A model generated the notes under the pieces. The model was not told the DNA's origin. It saw only the letters and a program-made list of their open reading frames with translations, and searched no databases. From a bacterium (lineage in GTDB: Bacteria; Patescibacteriota; Minisyncoccia; UBA6257; UBA9933), in the NCBI GenBank assembly GCA_021796335.1, contig JAJYHZ010000002.1, forward strand, positions 192,998 through 256,997: a DNA stretch of 64,000 bases. Direction: 5' to 3'. The position numbers were made by a program, and so were the translations under genes. Positions 13,640 through 53,679 of the stretch are shown piece after piece. Each line of letters begins with the position of its first letter. Within the stretch, counting starts at the first letter, position 1.

Positions 13640-13761
13640 CGAGGGGAAGTTTCCGGGCAGAGGAATGACACTATCCAGAAATAAGCTTGACTTTATGAGC
13701 TAATAAGGTGTATTATTTATATAAAGAGAAATCCGCAGGTCGCGGGTTTTTTTAAAAAAAC

Positions 13762-13857
13762 AAATTTACACGAATGAGTAACGAATCTGCACGAATCACG
13801 AATATTGTTTATCGGTGATTCGTGAAAATTTGTTTTTAATTTGTGAGAATTCGTAAA
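13762..13857. promoter_or_regulatory. array of CACGAAT/CACAAAT heptamers in direct and inverted orientation immediately upstream of nusA
   Basis: acacgaat, aacgaat, cacgaat-cacgaat, then gtgattcgtg, atttgtt, atttgtg, attcgta; same word family flanks GxxExxY gene at 50609-50652/51024-51070. Confidence 0.5.
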
Positions 13858-23803: not shown

Positions 23804-26800
23804 ATGAGTAATATAATCAGAAAGATCGCAGTTGTAGGGCTTTCAGCAACCACTGTGTTGTCTTTTTCTGGAGTTATTTTCTCAGCTTCAGCCGCAACTG
23901 CCGCTGATATCCAAGCCCAAATTCAGGCTTTGGAAACTCAGCTCGCAGCTTTGCAGTCGCAGCTCGGAACCACTTCGGGAACAACTGCTTCAGCAACCAC
24001 TTTTACTCGCAACCTCACTGTGGGTTCAAGAGGAACTGAAGTTTCAGCCTTACAGCAAATTTTGATTAACGCGGGCTTTTTGAAGATCGCTACTCCGACC
24101 ACCTACTTTGGTCCTTTGACAAAAGCAGCTTTGGCTAAATATCAGGCAGCTAATGGCATTAAGCCGGCTGTCGGATATTTCGGACCGATCACAAGAGCTT
24201 ACGTTAATTCATTACAAACAACAACCGGAACTGGAACCGGCACTGGTACTGGAACAGGTACTGGCACTGGAACCGGAACTGGAACCACAACGCCGGCAGC
24301 CGCTGGTTTGACAGTCTCATTGGCTTCAGACAATCCGGCAGCCGCAAGCATTCCTCGAAATTACACTGGACAGGGATCAGAGTTGGTTCCTGTGATGAAA
24401 GTTAATTTCGCAGCAGGAAGCAATGCCGTTACCGTAACCGATTTGAAAGTCAACCGATCAGGCCTTTCAGCCGACAGTGACATTCAAAATGTTTACCTTA
24501 TGGATGGAAGCAATGTAATTGCAACCAACTTAAGCATCAGCAGCGGTGTTATTGATTTCAATAACGGCGCAGGTTTGTTTACGGTTAACGCAAATCAAAC
24601 AAAAGAACTGATTGTTGCAATCAGCTTGGTTGATAGTGTAGCTGCAGGATCAACCTATCAGTTTTCTATTGCCAGCGCTTCATCAGTTACAGCTGGCGGA
24701 GCTGCAATCAACGGAACATTTCCGGTTAGCGGTAATACTATGACTTCTGCTACAGTTACAACTCTTGGCGGAATTCAGATTACCGACAGCTCAACTGGAA
24801 CTTCATCCCCAGGATTATCAGTAAATGCCGGACAAACTCAGTTCCAGGTTGGACAGTTCTCAATTCAGGCGCAGCAGCAATCAATGCAAGTTAAATCAAT
24901 CAAACTTACTTCGGTTGGAAGCGTAGCCTCAACTGATGTACAGAATTTCAAGTTATACAATGGCGGAACTTTGTTGGCCACTGTTCCTTCAGTTGGCTCA
25001 AACAATACCGTTTTGTTTGACTTGTCAGCTAGTCCGTTGCAATTAACCTCGGGACAATCAGCTCAACTTTATGTTTATGCTGATGTTTTGGGCGGTGTAA
25101 ACCGATACTTCCAATTGTCAATCCAGCATGATTACGATGTAGTTGCGCAGGACTTGATGTTTAATATCGGCGTAACACCTTCATTGAACACCGGTTCATT
25201 CCCGATGTATTTGTCTTATGTCAACGTTCAAGCGGGAGCTTTGACTATTACCAAGGATGCAAACTCTCCGGTTAACTATCTGTTGCCGGGAGGAACCAAC
25301 CAAACCATTGCCAAGATTGATTTCCAGGCAACTGGCGAAGCGGTAAGAATCACAAGTTTCGCTGTTAACTTGGCAACTACTACTGGAACAACCGGAACAG
25401 TCTCTAACCTTAAGGTTATTGATGACCAGGGCGTTCAAATCGGTACGACTCAAACATCGCCGACTTTGGGCTCTGATATTTCTTACAGCAATTTGAATTA
25501 CATCATTCCAGCAAATACAACCAGAGTTCTCTCGGTTGTGGTTGATGTATCTTCAGGTTATTCCGGAACATTGCAAGGTACTATAAAGACTATTGTTGGC
25601 CAGGGATACACTTCTCTTGCCTCAATAAGCAATGCTTCCGGTCAGAGCGGCAATTCTTTGACTGCCAACAGCACTCTTTTGAGCGTTGCTCAAAACGGTT
25701 CATTGGGAACAGTCAGCGTTGTTGCCGGACAATCCAATGCCCACATCGCTTCATTTAACTTGACAGCGGGCGCGGCAAGCGGAGTCAGCGTTTCCAACAT
25801 TTCTTTGACCACCGATTCAAAGGCTGGATCAGTACTGAAGAATTTGGTTGTTAAAGTTGGAGGAACTCAGATCGGAACAACTCAGGGCACTGTCAGCGCA
25901 AGCACTGCTTACACTTTCACTGCCTCAACTCCGATTACAATTGCGGCAGGAGGACAGCAGACTGTTGACGTATATGCCGATGTCCAGAGCGGAGCTTCTA
26001 ACGGTACTACAACCATTACCAGCCTTTCCGGCGTATCGGCTATCGCTTCCGCAACAAATCAGGCAATCACCGGAGTTCCGAGTTCTGCAGTAGCCGGTCA
26101 AACCGACACTGTAGCAACTGCCGGAACAATGACTTATGCTGGTTACAACATGCCGGCTGCACAGCAGGTTGGCATGGGAACAACCGGTATCAAGATTGCT
26201 TCATACTTGTTGACAGGTTCTAACAGCGAAGCTATCAACGTTAATAACGTTACGGTAAATTCAACATCGTCAATTGCCGGTTTGCTTTCAAATTACACTT
26301 TGAAAGTCGGCGGAACCACTTATGGCACTCCGTTAACACCGGGATCAGGAACAACAACCTCATTGACATTTGTTGGAACCAATATTCCTGTTGCTCAGAG
26401 CGGAACTGTTGAATTGGATCTTTATGCAGACGCAAACTCATATTCTAATTTGAGCGGCGTTTACACATCGACCAATACGCCTGCAACGGTTACTGTAGGT
26501 ATTCCTTCGATCACTTATCAGGGAACTGCTTCACAGAATACCGGAACTGCAACAAGCACCGATCAAAGCCAGACTTTGACAGTGGTTAGGTCATCCTTGG
26601 CAGCTTCAACTGCTTCGGGTGTTACCTATGGCGGTTCATACAGCAACTACTTGGTTGGCGCTTTCACATTCACTGCTGGAAGCGGCAACAATGTCAGTAT
26701 TTCCGCAATCAATCTTGGAGAATTGATTAACAATGCAAGCTCAAGTAAAACAACTACTACTTTGATCTTGTGGGATAACACTTTGGGACAGGCCGTTGAC

Positions 26801-49175: not shown

Positions 49176-50627
49176 TTATTGTCTTTGCAGGATGATGTTT
49201 TTAATATCAATCGCGGTTTCTTCTTTTAAAATAATCAGAGAGACAATATAAGCCAGAGCGGAGGAGATTATTATCAGGAGGACATTGATGTTGAGGTTTA
49301 ATAGCCCTTCGATAAAGCCGACCATAACAGCCGAGGCGATAATTGTTTTTGTAAAACTGCTAATAACTCTAAACTGAAGGTGTTTTTTAAGACTGAAGTA
49401 TAGATACAGGGTTATTATGATTGTGTTTATAAGCGAAGCCAAAGCAGATCCGGCAATGCCAAATGGAGGTATGAGCAAAATATCAAAAAACAGATTTCCG
49501 AAAATTCCAAGAGCCGCATAAATAAGCAATTGACGCTCTTTTCTAAGGGCAAATAATTGATTGCCAAGCGCATTGGACATAAAGGTGGGAATAAACATCA
49601 GGCTCATTATCATAAAAGTGATTGTGGCCGGAATATACCGGTATCCGAATAATAAAACGATAATTTTTTGCGATAATAAAATTCCGCCAATTGTTAAGGG
49701 GAGGGCTAAAATTATCATCAGTGCCAAACTTTTTTCAACTATTTTTACCAGCCTTTCTTTTTGGTCGGCTAATTTCGCGGTTTGGGGGAAAAGGGCAACG
49801 GTTATCATGGCAGGCACAATAAAAATAATTTGGGTTATTCTTAATGGCGCGGAGTAGTAGCCTACCTCGGTGATGCTTTTTAACCAAGCAATCATAAGGT
49901 TGTCCGTGTTGAGCATTACTGTTCCCATAACAGCCAGAATTCCCATGGGCCAGCTGGAATAAAGAAGGGTTTTTATTATGCTTTTCGAAAAAGTTTTTTT
50001 GACGTTTTTGAGATAACGGCGGAACGGATAGAATGCGCTTATCATGCCCAGTCCTGTTCCAAGCACATATCCAAGAGAAAGAGCTTTCGGGGTTTTGGAA
50101 TAATAAAGGGCGAGAAAACCGCCGGCGACAATAAAGACATTGGTGATAATTTGAACAACAGCTTCGATCTCCATTTTTTCCCAGGCGCGGGCAAGAGAGG
50201 CGCCAAAATCCCTCAAGCTGTCAAAGGCGACAATTAGAATAACTATCGGCATCAAGTCGGCGACGGCTTTATCTTTAAAGAGAAGAGGAGACAAAACAAT
50301 TACTGAGATGGAGATGAGGGCGAGCATTATCAGTTTTATAACTAAGGCGGTGGAAAAATATTTTTCCTGGATAGAAAGATCCTTGCTGGATTCGCGGACA
50401 ATGGTCGCGTTTAATCCGAAATCGGCGAAGGTTGTGAAAAATCCGGCTAAACTTAAGGCATAAGAAAAAGCGCCGTATCCGTTAACGCTGAGGACGCGAG
50501 CGGCATAAACGATGATGGCCAGCTTGATAAGCTTTGAAAAAATCTGGCCGAAAAACAGCCAAAAGGTATTTTTGGCGACAGTCTGGCGGGCGGTTTTATT
50601 TTTGAATAAGAATTCACGAATATTCAC
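49176..50627 (-). CDS. wzx: Wzx-type polysaccharide flippase (MOP superfamily)
   Basis: 12-14 TM helices, polysacc_synt-like N-terminus; GTG start inferred. Confidence 0.7.
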   Translation of the reverse strand: MNIREFLFKNKTARQTVAKNTFWLFFGQIFSKLIKLAIIVYAARVLSVNGYGAFSYALSLAGFFTTFADFGLNATIVRESSKDLSIQEKYFSTALVIKLIMLALISISVIVLSPLLFKDKAVADLMPIVILIVAFDSLRDFGASLARAWEKMEIEAVVQIITNVFIVAGGFLALYYSKTPKALSLGYVLGTGLGMISAFYPFRRYLKNVKKTFSKSIIKTLLYSSWPMGILAVMGTVMLNTDNLMIAWLKSITEVGYYSAPLRITQIIFIVPAMITVALFPQTAKLADQKERLVKIVEKSLALMIILALPLTIGGILLSQKIIVLLFGYRYIPATITFMIMSLMFIPTFMSNALGNQLFALRKERQLLIYAALGIFGNLFFDILLIPPFGIAGSALASLINTIIITLYLYFSLKKHLQFRVISSFTKTIIASAVMVGFIEGLLNLNINVLLIIISSALAYIVSLIILKEETAIDIKNIILQRQ

Positions 50628-50652
50628 AAATTAAACACAAATTTCACAAATG
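50609..50652. promoter_or_regulatory. heptamer array (cacgaat, cacaaat x3) overlapping wzx start and GxxExxY stop
   Basis: gaattcacgaatattcacaaattaaacacaaatttcacaaatg; ~85% identical to reverse complement of nusA-upstream array. Confidence 0.5.
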
Positions 50653-51045
50653 CTAATTAAGCACTCTTCGAAATTCAAGCTTGTTATGTTTGAAATTAGC
50701 AATAATTCCCAATTTTAATCCTGTAGCTTCTAAATATCGTAGAACTTGCTTTATGTCATTTTGACTTATTTTCCAAATAACTTTTGTTTCCAATAAGATT
50801 TGATTATTTATTATAAAATCAGCAAAAAATTCACCCAACTCTTCATCTTCAAATTTTGTTTTTATCTGAACTTCTTTTTTATCGAGAAGACTATATTTCC
50901 CCAGTTTTATAGCAATGGCTTTTTGATAATGTTTTTCTTGGTATTTATTTCCCAGCTTATTATGCACTTCAAATAGAATTCCCATTAGTTTATAACTTAA
51001 TTCTGGATAAATAAGTTTTTCTTTATTCGTGATATTCGTGATCAT
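50653..51045 (-). CDS. GxxExxY-family protein (predicted PD-(D/E)xK nuclease fold)
   Basis: YPELSYKLMGILFEVHNKLGNKYQEKHYQKAIAIKL carries the GxxExxY signature (GILFEVHNKLGNKY). Confidence 0.7.
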   Translation of the reverse strand: MITNITNKEKLIYPELSYKLMGILFEVHNKLGNKYQEKHYQKAIAIKLGKYSLLDKKEVQIKTKFEDEELGEFFADFIINNQILLETKVIWKISQNDIKQVLRYLEATGLKLGIIANFKHNKLEFRRVLN

Positions 51046-51070
51046 TTGTGTAAATTTGTGCGTAAATTAT
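51024..51070. promoter_or_regulatory. heptamer array (attcgtg x2, atttgtg x2, cgtaaat) overlapping GxxExxY start
   Basis: ttattcgtgatattcgtgatcatttgtgtaaatttgtgcgtaaatt. Confidence 0.5.
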
Positions 51071-52404
51071 TTCTGGTTCACAAAAAATAACTTAAGCGTT
51101 TTTAAAACAATAAGCAAATCCAAAAAAATCGAGCGGTTTTCAATGTAAAATATGTCATATTGGAGTTTTTCGACTGCGTCTTGAACGGAGGCGCCGTAGC
51201 GGTAATTGATTTGCGCCCAGCCGGTGATACCGGGTTTGGTCAAATGGCGGATTTCGTAATAAGGGATTTGATCCTTCAATTCTTTGACGAATTCGGGGCG
51301 TTCGGGACGGGGGCCGACAAAAGAAATATTTCCTTTAAAGACGTTGACTAGTTGCGGCAATTCGTCTAAGTGTGTGTATCTTAGAAATTTTCCGAATTTA
51401 GTTACGCGGTTGTCGCCGGGCTGGGACCATTGAGCGCCGTTTTTCTCGGCATCAAGGCGCATCGTTCTGAATTTATAAAGAGTAAATTCTTTTTCATTTT
51501 TTCCGATGCGGATTTGCTTATAAATCACAGGACCGAGAGAAGTCAGTTTGCCGATTAAAAATATAATAAGAAAAAACGGAGAAAAAATAATCAAGGCAAT
51601 TAAGGCGAAAATTTCATCAAGAATGTTTTTCCCCATGTCATATAGGCCGGTTTTATAAATGAAGTTTTCCAAAAACCAAGCTTCTTCCAACTCGGTTAGC
51701 GGGACCTTTTGGAAAATATTTTCATAGAATTCGGAAAGGTTGAGAACTCGGATTCCCAAGGGGAGATTTTTATAAATTAATTTCGCCAAGCGGATTTTTT
51801 CGGTTAAGTGGGCGGGAATGACAATTAATTTTATATTGTTTTTTAAAATGATTTGAGAAAGATTTTCGGCATTGGTCAGCTCATTTTCATGGATTTTCAA
51901 TTTAATTTGAAAACCGAATTGAGCGTGGATTTTTAAAAATTCGTCGAGTTTTTCCGGCAGATCATTTTTTTGATCAGAGGTGATAATTAAAACATTTTCG
52001 GGCGATTTTGATCTGATATTGAAAAAGTTAAAAAAGTATCGCCAGGCGAATTCCAAAATTCCAAAAACAATTATAAAGATAAGCAAGTTTGTTTTAGGAG
52101 CAATGCCAAAGAAGGGAATCAAATAAAAGAAGGCGATGGCTATAAAGATATTAATCAAAAGAGAAATGGCGAATTTTTTGAAAAAATTAAGATTATTGCG
52201 CAGAGTTTTGCTTTCGTAAAGGTCGTTGATATAAAAGACAATCAGCCAGATGATGAAAATAAGAGAAAAAGGCAGGATGTGAAGAGAAATCTTGCTCGCG
52301 AATTGTTGCGGACCATAACGCAAATCAAGGGTCAGAAGCAGAGATCCGTATAAAATAATAATATCGCTTATTAAAAGAAGAAATTGTTTAAATTTGGAAA
52401 GCAT
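51067..52404 (-). CDS. undecaprenyl-phosphate sugar phosphotransferase (WbaP/WcaJ-like bacterial sugar transferase)
   Basis: N-terminal TM bundle, C-terminal IRIGKNEKEFTLYKFRTM...GPRPERPEF catalytic domain. Confidence 0.8.
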   Translation of the reverse strand: MLSKFKQFLLLISDIIILYGSLLLTLDLRYGPQQFASKISLHILPFSLIFIIWLIVFYINDLYESKTLRNNLNFFKKFAISLLINIFIAIAFFYLIPFFGIAPKTNLLIFIIVFGILEFAWRYFFNFFNIRSKSPENVLIITSDQKNDLPEKLDEFLKIHAQFGFQIKLKIHENELTNAENLSQIILKNNIKLIVIPAHLTEKIRLAKLIYKNLPLGIRVLNLSEFYENIFQKVPLTELEEAWFLENFIYKTGLYDMGKNILDEIFALIALIIFSPFFLIIFLIGKLTSLGPVIYKQIRIGKNEKEFTLYKFRTMRLDAEKNGAQWSQPGDNRVTKFGKFLRYTHLDELPQLVNVFKGNISFVGPRPERPEFVKELKDQIPYYEIRHLTKPGITGWAQINYRYGASVQDAVEKLQYDIFYIENRSIFLDLLIVLKTLKLFFVNQK

Positions 52405-52755: not shown

Positions 52756-53577
52756 ATGGACAATAAAAATTCTAACAAATGGGCAATACCGGCAGCTATA
52801 ATTTTTGCAGCTCTTCTTATCGGAGGCGCATTAATTTATTCAACCGGGAAGAAAAGCATTGATTCCCAGCAAGGAAATGGCGCCAACCAACAGCAAAATC
52901 AGCAGGCAAATCAACCGGGAAATGCAAACCAGCAGCAAACAAATTCGGGCCAGGCCTCGGGTCCTTCCATAGACAGCAGCGATGTTGTTTTGGGAAATGC
53001 AAATGCTCCGCTGACAATTATCGAATTCGGGGATTTCCAATGCCCGTTTTGCACGAAGTTTTCTCAGGAAATCGAGCCTCAATTAAGGACTAATTATATA
53101 GATACGGGCAAGGCGAAAATGGTTTACAAGCCGCTGGCGTTTTTGGATTCCCAATCGCAATATAAAGAATCGCAAAATGCCGTAGCTGCGGTGGAATGCG
53201 CCAAAGAGCAAGGCAAGTTTTGGGATTTTCATGACGCGATTTTCAAATTCGAATACGGAGAATTGCAAAAGGAAATGGCCGGCCAGCTTCAAACTACGGA
53301 AAATATCGGAGTTTTGAACAGGGCTTTATTCCAGAGAATCGCGGGTGATCTTAAAATGGATACAAATAAGTTTTTGTCTTGCTATGATTCGGGGAAATAT
53401 GCCAACGCCTACCAAACTTACATGCAAGAGGGAGAGGCGGCTATGCCACAGGGAATCGGCACTCCCGCAGTTTTCGTAAACGGGCAAAAGGCGGAACTTC
53501 AGATTAATTCTTCGGGACAATTTGATTTCAACGCTTTTTCCCGGGTTCTGGATGGAATGCTGGGGAATGGCAAATAG
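52756..53577 (+). CDS. DsbA-family thiol:disulfide oxidoreductase, membrane-anchored, with Q/N-rich linker
   Basis: FGDFQCPFC thioredoxin-fold CxxC; start chosen at MDNKNSNKW preceding TM helix. Confidence 0.7.
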   Translation: MDNKNSNKWAIPAAIIFAALLIGGALIYSTGKKSIDSQQGNGANQQQNQQANQPGNANQQQTNSGQASGPSIDSSDVVLGNANAPLTIIEFGDFQCPFCTKFSQEIEPQLRTNYIDTGKAKMVYKPLAFLDSQSQYKESQNAVAAVECAKEQGKFWDFHDAIFKFEYGELQKEMAGQLQTTENIGVLNRALFQRIAGDLKMDTNKFLSCYDSGKYANAYQTYMQEGEAAMPQGIGTPAVFVNGQKAELQINSSGQFDFNAFSRVLDGMLGNGK

Positions 53578-53679
53578 CGGATAGCTAATGGCGAATAGCC
53601 ACAGCTAAACAGAAAGGATTATTAACAGATGTGGTAAAATCCAAAGAAAGGTCGTTAGATCAGAATAGCAGAAAGTTAT

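What the first reader, a model, noticed from the sequence alone, without database searches (positions are those of the whole stretch)
50609..51070. GxxExxY (PD-(D/E)xK-fold) gene inserted between wzx and wbaP, flanked by CACGAAT/CACAAAT heptamer arrays
The 130-aa GxxExxY gene interrupts an otherwise functional flippase and priming-transferase pair. On one side sit cacgaat and three copies of cacaaat. On the other side sit two copies of attcgtg and two of atttgtg, which are the complementary words in the same order. The arrays overlap the neighbouring start codons. GxxExxY genes are known to be carried by selfish insertions, for example in 23S rRNA intervening sequences. The arrangement looks like a small mobile or iteron-bearing cassette.
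Basis: partly seen in the sequence, partly recalled or inferred. Interest (0 to 1): 0.6.

Follow-up and report, generated by a model that had tools for sequence, protein, structure and literature searches.

The report
Nuclease gene cassette bracketed by heptamer arrays
A tiny nuclease gene, bracketed by two mirror-image arrays of a 7-letter DNA word, was inserted between two sugar-coat genes without breaking their operon; it belongs to a very widespread class of cassette that I could not find described in the literature, some members of which sit in frame inside essential genes.

Summary
Window 50615-51060 holds a 130-aa GxxExxY (PF13366/TIGR04256) PD-(D/E)xK nuclease gene. It is bracketed by two inverted arrays of four CAC(G/A)AAT words spaced about 10 nt apart.

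The cassette is an insertion. The two closest syntenic relatives have wbaP abutting wzx, with no cassette and no arrays. In the window, the arrays supply the nuclease gene's ATG and TAG. They also supply the GTG start that replaces the ancestral 5' end of wzx.

The arrangement is family-wide:
- About 22 independent contexts from several phyla show the same gene between inverted word arrays.
- The gene is always co-oriented with both housekeeping neighbours (gatC|gatA, dcd|gatB, fabD|fabG and others).
- Some copies sit in frame inside gatB and recO.
- Gene-less array hairpins also occur, one at window 13760-13854. An internally deleted copy links the two forms.

The best reading is a promoter-less selfish nuclease mini-element with TIR-like phased arrays and MITE-like derivatives. 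The insertion and the architecture are shown. The mobilisation mechanism is inferred.

I found no published description of this arrangement.

The parts
51025..51060 (-). Upstream (5') word array of the cassette. In gene sense it reads CACAAAT-tta-CACAAAT-gat-CACGAAT-at-CACGAAT, with a period of 9-10 nt. The second word plus G forms the ATG of the nuclease gene.
50653..51045 (-). 130-aa GxxExxY / PDDEXK_3 nuclease gene. D76, E86 and K88 (D-x9-E-x-K) are invariant among 28 homologues. Residues 2-7 (ITNITN) are encoded by the array and are predicted with low confidence.
50615..50659 (-). Downstream (3') word array. In gene sense it reads AATTAGC (holds the TAG stop, 50653-50655), then ATTTGTG x3, then ATTCGTG, with a period of 9-11 nt.
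50625..50627 (-). GTG start codon of wzx, lying inside the third ATTTGTG word. Codons 2-4 (N-I-R) are also array-encoded and replace the ancestral N-terminus MMVKKIK seen in L178.
49176..50627 (-). Host gene downstream of the insert: Wzx-type flippase (Polysacc_synt).
51067..52404 (-). Host gene upstream of the insert: WbaP-type priming sugar transferase (Bac_transf). Its TAA stop lies 6 nt before the array.
13760..13854 (+). Gene-less counterpart. An F array (ACAAAT, CACGAAT, AACGAAT, CACGAAT, CACGAAT) abuts an R array (ATTCGTG, ATTTGTT, ATTTGTG, ATTCGTA). The arms are 45 nt, 73% complementary, with a 5-nt loop. It lies in the nusA leader between a promoter-like site plus small hairpin and the nusA ATG (13861).

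Best explanation
Window 50615-51060 is a self-contained, promoter-less insertion. It is a minimal (130 aa) GxxExxY PD-(D/E)xK nuclease gene bracketed by two inverted arrays of CACNAAT words phased about 10 nt apart. It is one member of a large, phylum-spanning class of such cassettes. These live co-directionally inside host transcription units, either between housekeeping genes or in frame within them.

How I think it works:
1. It is transcribed by read-through from the wbaP promoter.
2. The arrays act as translational adaptors. The 5' array provides the nuclease gene's ATG. The first 3' word provides its TAG. A later 3' word provides the GTG that restarts wzx. The host operon therefore stays functional and the insert is nearly silent phenotypically.
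3. The arrays are also the element's ends, like terminal inverted repeats (TIRs). Multiple phased words on one face of the helix would be bound by the nuclease, or by a multimer of it. The nuclease would make the break that leads to copying of the cassette into new sites by host recombination or repair, in a homing- or transposition-like way.
4. Loss of the gene leaves array hairpins such as 13760-13854, which would be the non-autonomous, MITE/REPIN-like derivatives.

Shown: the insertion, the conserved architecture, the co-orientation, the embedded start and stop codons, intact catalytic residues, the gene-less and internally deleted forms, and in-frame intragenic copies.

Inferred: that the nuclease recognises the words, and the copying mechanism.
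For: Insertion. The closest syntenic relatives L178 (Wzx 64% identical) and L179 (57%) keep TrxR-Grx-DsbA/wbaP-wzx/GT9. In them wbaP and wzx overlap by 4 bp or lie 38 bp apart, with no arrays. Five further relatives behave the same way. The window's wzx N-terminus is rebuilt from heptamers.

Family-wide architecture. In 20 of 20 genome loci found through the protein alone, the gene lies between a 5' array and an inverted 3' array. ACGAAT is enriched 82-fold upstream and ATTAGT/ATTCGT 53-63-fold downstream. Spacing peaks at 10 nt on both sides. Control loci without the gene (L023-L043 and L178-L180, about 150 kb) have no arrays.

Other word alphabets, same design. Bacteroides and Bernardetia use CACAGAG/CTCTGTG. 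Sphingomonas fabD|gx|fabG uses CGCGAAG. Treponema has an 11-bp inverted repeat.

Orientation. About 22 independent contexts are all co-oriented with both neighbours. There is no promoter- or terminator-like site between wbaP, the nuclease gene and wzx.

Ends. Word variants co-vary between the two flanks and with protein subfamily. The outermost words are often ATCGCGAAT...ATTCGCGAT.

Decay series. L020 carries an in-frame internal deletion with intact arrays, at the same site as the intact L005. Solo hairpins occur in the window, L044, L181 and L182.

Intragenic copies. The GatB proteins P0364 and P0376, and RecO P0370, carry array-gx-array in frame. The reading frame is kept at the same gatB site in a diverged copy, L186.

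Protein. D76, E86 and K88 are invariant. The structure model is confident (pLDDT 87), and its nearest solved folds are lambda-exonuclease, MGME1 and Cas4 nucleases.

Scale. The profile finds 9,311 clusters at 50% identity.
Against: - There is no biochemical evidence that GxxExxY proteins cut or bind anything. Foldseek matches are weak (TM about 0.5, E about 1e-3).
- No target-site duplication or precise empty/filled pair at high identity was found. The closest empty sites are 57-64% identical at the protein level, so the insertion boundaries are approximate.
- No pair of near-identical cassettes in different contexts was found, so recent movement is not shown. Several cassettes are old and vertically inherited at one site (L008-L011, L003/L004, L184/L186).
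- CACGAAT arrays are abundant without any GxxExxY gene nearby. More than 120 viral contigs carry them, none with the gene in the fetched stretches. They are also common in CPR (Patescibacteria) intergenic leaders. The arrays may therefore have a life and function of their own, with the gene merely associated with them.
- A 130-aa nuclease alone is not a known transposase.
Confidence: 0.6

Rival explanations
1. RNA-level device resembling rRNA intervening sequences. The two arrays pair in the operon transcript into a long stem that loops out the nuclease ORF. The stem is cut by RNase III or a similar enzyme, which separates or stabilises the cistrons. The arrays would then exist for RNA structure, not as DNA ends.
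For: The minimum-free-energy and centroid folds of the 476-nt sense RNA both close with a 5'-array:3'-array stem. Cognate array pairs give stronger duplexes than non-cognate pairs (-37.1 vs -32.0 kcal/mol, permutation p 0.0007). Sense RNA is more stable than antisense. The solo hairpin is very stable (z -6.3). The cassette is always in the sense orientation of a transcription unit.
Against: The whole-cassette fold is not significantly better than shuffles (z -1.7). Spacers between words show no arm-to-arm complementarity beyond background (0.52 cognate vs 0.50 non-cognate). The variable fourth base is often mismatched between mirrored words. The energy signal is therefore explained by shared word types. 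Copies in gatB and recO keep the reading frame through both arrays over divergence, which excision would not require. No Rfam family matches.
Confidence: 0.15
2. The arrays are host or phage cis-elements for translation initiation or regulation, comparable to the TAACTGA heptamer repeats found upstream of start codons. The GxxExxY gene would then be an ordinary accessory gene that happens to be acquired or retained in array-rich spacers. It would have no role in moving itself.
For: Single-orientation CACGAAT arrays lie directly upstream of start codons in many viral contigs spanning 34-69% GC. They also lie in CPR leaders of nusA, secE, the H+-PPase gene, clpP and fusA. The genes after the arrays examined in the window and L046 lack a Shine-Dalgarno sequence. 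A comparable phenomenon is published (PMC4679880). At the nusA leader, relatives keep an array hairpin but with different words.
Against: This does not explain why essentially every GxxExxY gene, across phyla and word alphabets, is bracketed on both sides by inverted arrays whose variants match each other and the protein subfamily. It also does not explain the arrival of arrays and gene together at a junction that has neither in relatives. Nor does it explain the in-frame array-gene-array units inside gatB and recO.
Confidence: 0.15
3. A defence or toxin-antitoxin-type module. The nuclease would be a toxin or effector, and the repeats its RNA antitoxin or guide, as in type III ToxIN.
For: It is a small nuclease next to short direct repeats, and it is widely and patchily distributed.
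Against: There is no significant PADLOC or PHROG match. There is no partner gene, and the cassette is embedded in housekeeping operons rather than defence islands. The repeats are 10-nt units on both sides in inverted orientation, not 34-36-nt units upstream. In-frame fusion into GatB is hard to reconcile with a toxin.
Confidence: 0.04

Closest known systems
REP/REPIN-RAYT systems (repetitive extragenic palindromes and their associated tyrosine transposase; from my own knowledge of Nunvar 2010, Bertels & Rainey 2011 and Ton-Hoang 2012, not read here)
   Same: A small nuclease-type gene is flanked by two copies of the repeat in inverted orientation. Gene-less repeats are dispersed as hairpin-forming inverted doublets in transcribed intergenic spacers. 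Repeat variant and protein lineage co-vary.
   Different: The enzyme is a 130-aa PD-(D/E)xK protein, not an HUH/Y1 IS200-like transposase. The repeat is an array of phased 7-nt words rather than one 20-40-nt palindrome. The ORF's start and stop codons lie inside the repeats. Copies also occur in frame inside genes.
Rickettsia palindromic elements and other MITEs that insert without disrupting genes or operons (review PMC10969869, which cites Ogata 2000 and Chen 2008 'Chunjie')
   Same: Palindromic selfish DNA tolerated inside ORFs as in-frame, stop-free insertions, or inside operons without breaking them. The L184 gatB hairpin (87 nt, in frame) behaves this way.
   Different: Here an autonomous-looking form carries a nuclease gene between the arms. 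The arms are modular word arrays. The distribution spans many phyla and phages.
Free-standing and intron- or intein-borne homing endonuclease genes, including PD-(D/E)xK ones (own knowledge; CPR rRNA insertions)
   Same: A small nuclease gene lodged in conserved or essential loci, with presence/absence polymorphism between relatives, made phenotypically silent by its context.
   Different: There is no intron or intein. Silence would come from the arrays (stop/start supply or stop-free read-through). Target cleavage is untested. The family is not one of the characterised homing endonuclease families.
23S rRNA intervening sequences with their ORF (23S_rRNA_IVP, PF05635)
   Same: A small ORF bracketed by inverted repeats, inserted in a transcribed essential locus.
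   Different: Different protein fold and family, and not located in rRNA.
Intergenic heptamer direct repeats (TAACTGA in Beggiatoaceae, Cyanobacteria and Bacteroidetes, PMC4679880; cyanobacterial STRR heptamers, own knowledge)
   Same: 7-nt words repeated 2-6 times immediately upstream of start codons that lack a Shine-Dalgarno sequence. Patchy cross-phylum distribution. Function unknown.
   Different: Those are head-to-tail repeats without spacers, in one orientation, and are not reported as inverted brackets around a nuclease gene.

Membership tests
GxxExxY protein (TIGR04256) / PDDEXK_3 (PF13366) | Profile match above the curated cut-off over the full domain | tested here: met
   PF13366: 98.5 bits (cut-off 22), profile positions 2-117 of 117. 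TIGR04256: 96.3 bits (cut-off 35).
GxxExxY protein (TIGR04256) / PDDEXK_3 (PF13366) | PD-(D/E)xK catalytic signature and fold | tested here: met
   D76-x9-E86-x-K88 is invariant in 28 sequences. The AlphaFold2 model (pLDDT 87) has an alpha-alpha-beta-beta-beta-alpha-beta-beta order. The best solved-structure matches are lambda exonuclease, MGME1 and Cas4, though weakly.
GxxExxY protein (TIGR04256) / PDDEXK_3 (PF13366) | Nuclease activity | not testable with these tools
   No solved structure matches by sequence, and I found no characterised member. The family is listed as 'Unknown' in PMC3424549.
REP/REPIN-RAYT | HUH/Y1 (IS200/IS605-like) transposase gene | tested here: not met
   The only domain is PF13366.
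REP/REPIN-RAYT | Gene flanked by inverted repeats that also occur dispersed as gene-less hairpin doublets | tested here: met
   Flanks. Solo hairpins: window 13760-13854, L044 18791-18877, L181 1312-1439, and L182 (two). Genome-wide counts could not be made.
Homing endonuclease gene | Presence/absence polymorphism at an otherwise conserved site | tested here: met
   wbaP-wzx is adjacent in L178, L179 and L023-L027, and interrupted in the window.
Homing endonuclease gene | Site-specific cleavage of the empty allele and copying by repair | not testable with these tools
   This needs biochemistry or a genetic homing assay.
DNA transposon / MITE | Terminal inverted repeats | tested here: met
   The arms are inverted at word level. 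Outer words are ordered (ATCGCGAAT...ATTCGCGAT) in several loci.
DNA transposon / MITE | Target-site duplication | tested here: inconclusive
   None is visible at the window junction or the L184 intragenic insertions. No closely related empty site was available to define the boundaries.
DNA transposon / MITE | Recognised transposase (DDE, HUH, serine or tyrosine) | tested here: not met
   There is only a 130-aa PD-(D/E)xK domain.
23S rRNA intervening-sequence element | Located in rRNA and encodes a PF05635 four-helix-bundle protein | tested here: not met
   It lies between protein-coding genes. There is no rRNA in the window. The domain is PF13366, not PF05635. PF05635 is the family reported in CPR rRNA insertions.
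Integron gene cassette | attC site at the 3' end only, array next to intI/attI | tested here: not met
   There are repeats on both sides. The neighbours are wbaP and wzx, and the genes called within about 4 kb either side are glycosyltransferases and redox proteins, not an integrase.
Type III toxin-antitoxin (ToxIN-like) | Tandem 34-36-nt RNA repeats upstream of an endoribonuclease, separated by a terminator | tested here: not met
   The units are 10 nt, lie on both sides and are inverted. No terminator is present. There is no significant PADLOC match.
Replicon iterons | Direct repeats at an origin next to a replication initiator gene | tested here: not met
   The context is a chromosomal glycan operon. 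Identical proteins lie on a 277-kb contig. There is no rep gene.

The most novel reading that the evidence does not exclude
GxxExxY cassettes are a previously undescribed, phylum-spanning class of mobile element. A minimal PD-(D/E)xK nuclease travels with phased 7-nt-word arrays that serve two purposes. They are its recognition ends, and they are genetic-code adaptors. ATTAGTG gives a UAG/GUG stop-start overlap, CACTAATG gives UAAUG, and the CGAAT-type words are stop-free in the frames read. This lets the element reside inside operons and even in frame inside essential genes such as gatB and recO. It would be a third route, beside introns and inteins, for a homing-type nuclease to be phenotypically silent. 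The gene-less array hairpins that pepper CPR and phage intergenic regions would be its non-autonomous progeny.
Probability: 0.3. Interest if true: 0.9.

Novelty: new variant of a known kind. Interest (0 to 1): 0.72.

Why it matters
GxxExxY/PF13366 is a very large family of unknown function: at least 9,311 clusters at 50% identity match this one subfamily profile. Short heptamer arrays in bacterial and phage intergenic regions are also unexplained.

Linking the two gives a concrete, testable model for both:
- the protein would be a word-array-specific nuclease;
- the arrays would be element ends and translational adaptors.

The model also explains several annotation oddities. These include proteins with TN/HE/RI-type repeat termini, 'fusion' proteins such as GatB-PDDEXK_3-GatB, and start codons inside repeats.

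If the element really moves, it is a new way for selfish DNA to live inside essential operons and ORFs of highly reduced genomes. It could also be a source of compact sequence-specific nucleases.

Tried and rejected
- Chance clustering. Rejected: shuffles give 0.36 arrays per window, and control loci have none.
- Ancestral gene lost in relatives. Rejected on parsimony: seven relatives lack it, and the window's wzx 5' end is rebuilt from heptamers.
- Known RNA family. Rfam finds only five tRNAs in the window.
- Solved homologue by sequence. None.
- Defence or phage family. Only insignificant hits.
- GxxExxY relatives in viral contigs. None, and none next to the viral arrays.
- Helix covariation. 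Spacer complementarity is no better for cognate than for non-cognate arms, so I did not build a covariance model.
- Target-site duplication. None seen.
- Own promoter or terminator. None seen.
- Iteron/origin, integron and type III toxin-antitoxin readings. Their defining features are not met (see the membership table).
- Literature searches for GxxExxY, PF13366/TIGR04256, CACGAAT/ATTCGTG and heptamer repeats. These gave no description of this arrangement.
- Whether four-helix-bundle (PF05635) genes carry the same brackets. Not tested, because I had no verified query sequence.
- Genome-wide counts in the source genome. Not possible, because only the window is available.
Full report
**1. What is in the window**

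- On the + strand, CACGAAT lies at 50615 and CACAAAT at 50625, 50636 and 50645.
- On the - strand, CACGAAT lies at 51025 and 51034, and CACAAAT at 51044 and 51054.
- Tandem Repeats Finder scores 50612-50651 as four copies of a 10-nt unit.

The word CACRAAT is not over-represented in the window as a whole (24 matches against 20.8 +/- 4.3 expected). Its clustering is significant. An array rule finds five arrays in 64 kb, against 0.36 per shuffled window. Two bracket the ORF. Two abut each other at 13760-13854. One weak array lies at 53570-53596.

The ORF between the arrays (50653-51045, minus strand, 130 aa) is a full-length PF13366/TIGR04256 GxxExxY protein. Its neighbours on the same strand are a Bac_transf priming transferase (51067-52404) and a Polysacc_synt flippase (49176-50627).

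No promoter-like or terminator-like site separates the three genes on the minus strand. They therefore look like one transcription unit.

**2. It is an insertion**

The two closest relatives of the flippase are L178 (64% identical) and L179 (57%). Both keep the window's gene order: TrxR, Grx, DsbA, wbaP, wzx, GT9. In L178, wbaP and wzx overlap by 4 bp (ATGA). In L179 they are 38 bp apart. Neither has a nuclease gene or any array. Five more distant loci behave the same way.

Aligning the junctions shows that the wbaP C-termini are colinear (…LKLFFVNQK* against …IKLFFVNLK*). The window's wzx has lost the ancestral MMVKKIK. It begins instead with V(M)-N-I-R, encoded by the last two words of the array (ATTTGTG AAT ATTCGTG). 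The public gene call for the identical protein uses that GTG.

The array therefore supplies the start codon of the downstream host gene. It also supplies the nuclease gene's own ATG (CACAAATG) and its TAG stop (AATTAGC).

**3. The bracket is a hallmark of the family**

Homologues at 60-76% identity are abundant in Patescibacteria. Their N-termini read MxTNxTNK, often preceded by …SLICTNM…, which is the translated array.

I retrieved 20 genomic loci through the protein alone. They come from MAGs labelled Patescibacteria, Saccharibacteria, WOR-3, Stahlbacteria and others. In essentially all of them the gene has a 5' array of CACGAAT/CACAAAT/CACTAAT/CGCGAAT words and a 3' array of the complementary words.

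- ACGAAT is enriched 82-fold upstream, and ATTAGT/ATTCGT 53-63-fold downstream.
- Word spacing peaks sharply at 10 nt, with 9-11 nt making up about 73% on both sides.
- Loci without the gene (about 150 kb) have no arrays.
- Word variants co-vary between the two flanks of a locus and with protein subfamily: TAC/TGC words in L013 and L019, TCC words in L016 and L017, CACTAAT in L004 and L007. The outermost words are often ATCGCGAAT…ATTCGCGAT, so the arms have defined ends.

More distant members in cultured organisms show the same design with other words:

- CACAGAG/CTCTGTG in Bacteroides finegoldii (radA|gx|FAD protein) and Bernardetia (ade|gx|manC).
- CGCGAAG in Sphingomonas (fabD|gx|fabG).
- A perfect 11-bp inverted repeat in Treponema.
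- Prevotella and a Fusobacterium have direct rather than inverted repeats.

**4. Always in the sense of the host operon, and sometimes inside genes**

In about 22 independent contexts, both neighbours are on the same strand as the nuclease gene, and the arrays fill the spacers. The hosts are typically housekeeping operons such as gatC|gatA and dcd|gatB.

A profile search of 1.84 billion representatives finds 9,311 clusters. Many are 'fusions'.

- P0364 and P0376 are GatB proteins with array-gx-array inserted in frame. The Pfam order is GatB_N, PDDEXK_3, GatB_N, GatB_Yqey, and the same protein occurs on contigs from two samples.
- P0370 is RecO with the same kind of insert, also from two samples.

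The DNA of L184 shows two insertions inside gatB:

- An 87-nt gene-less hairpin (4 x CTCGAAT abutting 4 x ATTCGAG), in frame.
- A full cassette without a stop codon, also in frame. A diverged copy at the same site (L186) is again in frame.

L044 has an in-frame array inside gatC.

The element can thus be read through by the ribosome, as described for Rickettsia palindromic elements (PMC10969869).

**5. Gene-less and decayed forms**

Window 13760-13854 is an F array abutting an R array. The arms are 45 nt and 73% complementary. The RNA fold z-score is -6.3. It lies in the nusA leader after a promoter-like site and a small hairpin.

Relatives have an array hairpin at the same place but with other words. 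They also have further hairpins between rpsG and fusA, and before the H+-PPase and clpP genes. L044 has one between a PBP gene and galT.

L020 has the arrays intact but an in-frame deletion of residues 33-113 of the gene. It sits at the site where L005 has an intact copy. This is a plausible series running from the autonomous form through a deleted form to the hairpin.

**6. DNA ends or RNA stem?**

The sense RNA of the cassette folds with a closing stem between the two arrays. Cognate arrays also pair better than non-cognate ones (p 0.0007). Three results argue against a conserved helix:

- The whole fold is not significantly stable (z -1.7).
- Spacers show no cognate complementarity (0.52 against 0.50).
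- The variable fourth base is often mismatched.

The conserved things are the words and their 10-nt phasing, even inside coding sequence, where a spacing of 9 or 12 nt would be easier. This favours recognition of phased words on one face of duplex DNA over selection for a helix, although it does not prove it. Frame conservation of the intragenic copies also argues against excision at the RNA level.

**7. The protein**

D76, E86 and K88 form a D-x9-E-x-K signature that is invariant. The AlphaFold2 model is confident except for the array-encoded first residues. The nearest solved folds are lambda exonuclease, MGME1 and Cas4, though the matches are weak. There are no defence-family or phage-family matches.

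**8. The arrays have a wider life**

From the pattern length and my rough estimate of the collection's size, about 0.3 hits would be expected by chance. The contigs span 34-69% GC. The arrays are mostly single-orientation and lie just upstream of start codons. A few inverted pairs enclose methyltransferase-like or other genes. No GxxExxY gene is nearby. A few hits are collagen-like GTN coding repeats.

This is the main caveat. The arrays may be cis-elements in their own right, comparable to the TAACTGA repeats of PMC4679880.

**9. Verdict**

The insertion, the architecture and its generality are shown. That the nuclease recognises the arrays and mobilises the unit is inference.

The closest analogues are REP/RAYT systems, in-frame palindromic elements and MITEs, and homing endonuclease genes. 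The cassette fails the defining enzyme test for REP/RAYT and for classical transposons.

I found no description of this arrangement in the searchable literature.

Noticed in passing
window 13760-13854: A gene-less hairpin made of CACGAAT/ATTCGTG word arrays lies in the nusA leader. It follows a promoter-like site (13687-13716) and a small GC hairpin. Relatives L181-L183 keep an array hairpin at the same place but with different words (TACGAAT/ATTAGTA; CCAACAA/GGTTGTAGG).
   Followed up: yes
window 53570-53596: Weak one-sided array (GGCAAAT, AGCTAAT, GGCGAAT) that starts just inside the 3' end of the DsbA-like gene and runs past its stop codon. It has no inverted partner.
   Followed up: no
L184 3001-4965 (also L185, L186): gatB carries two in-frame insertions: an 87-nt CTCGAAT/ATTCGAG hairpin and a complete array-GxxExxY-array unit without a stop codon (654-aa GatB). 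The frame is kept at the same site in a diverged copy.
   Followed up: yes
L187 1551-2687, L188: RecO has a PDDEXK_3 domain and array-encoded linkers inserted in frame (RecO_N + PDDEXK_3). It is seen in two samples.
   Followed up: partly
L044 9909-9945: A four-word array lies in frame inside gatC (…SRISTNLDTNRTN…), just upstream of the gatC|GxxExxY|gatA cassette. The cassette recurs around the gat genes: gatC|gatA, dcd|gatB, and inside gatB.
   Followed up: partly
L020 3995-4193: An internally deleted GxxExxY gene (in-frame loss between two KLG motifs) has intact flanking arrays. It sits at the site where L005 has an intact copy.
   Followed up: yes
L052-L171 (viral contigs), e.g. L061, L064, L065, L072: CACGAAT triple arrays occur in at least 120 phage or viral contigs of 34-69% GC, mostly right before start codons. 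L072 has five intergenic units of ATTCGTG x3, about 35 nt, then CACGAAT words. Inverted pairs enclose a 247-aa ORF (L058), a 312-aa ORF (L094), a DNA methylase-like ORF (L146) and a membrane-protein-like ORF (L149). These ORF identities are from reading the sequences and were not tested with Pfam.
   Followed up: partly
L172, L175, L176, L177, L174, L022: In cultured bacteria the same bracket uses other words: CACAGAG/CTCTGTG (Bacteroides, Bernardetia), CGCGAAG (Sphingomonas, splitting fabD-fabG), and an 11-bp inverted repeat (Treponema). Prevotella and a Fusobacterium have direct repeats instead.
   Followed up: partly
L181 1312-1439; L182 12246-12330 and 14322-14370: Array hairpins of TAC/TGC-type words lie between rpsG and fusA, and in near-identical form upstream of the H+-PPase and clpP genes.
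   Followed up: partly
P0363, P0366, P0369 and others: Many representatives of about 265 aa contain two GxxExxY domains in tandem. These are presumably adjacent cassettes read through as one ORF.
   Followed up: no
window 24223-24286: A 6/12/18-nt tandem repeat (AACTGG/AACCGG…), probably a coding Thr-Gly-type repeat. It is unrelated to the finding.
   Followed up: no
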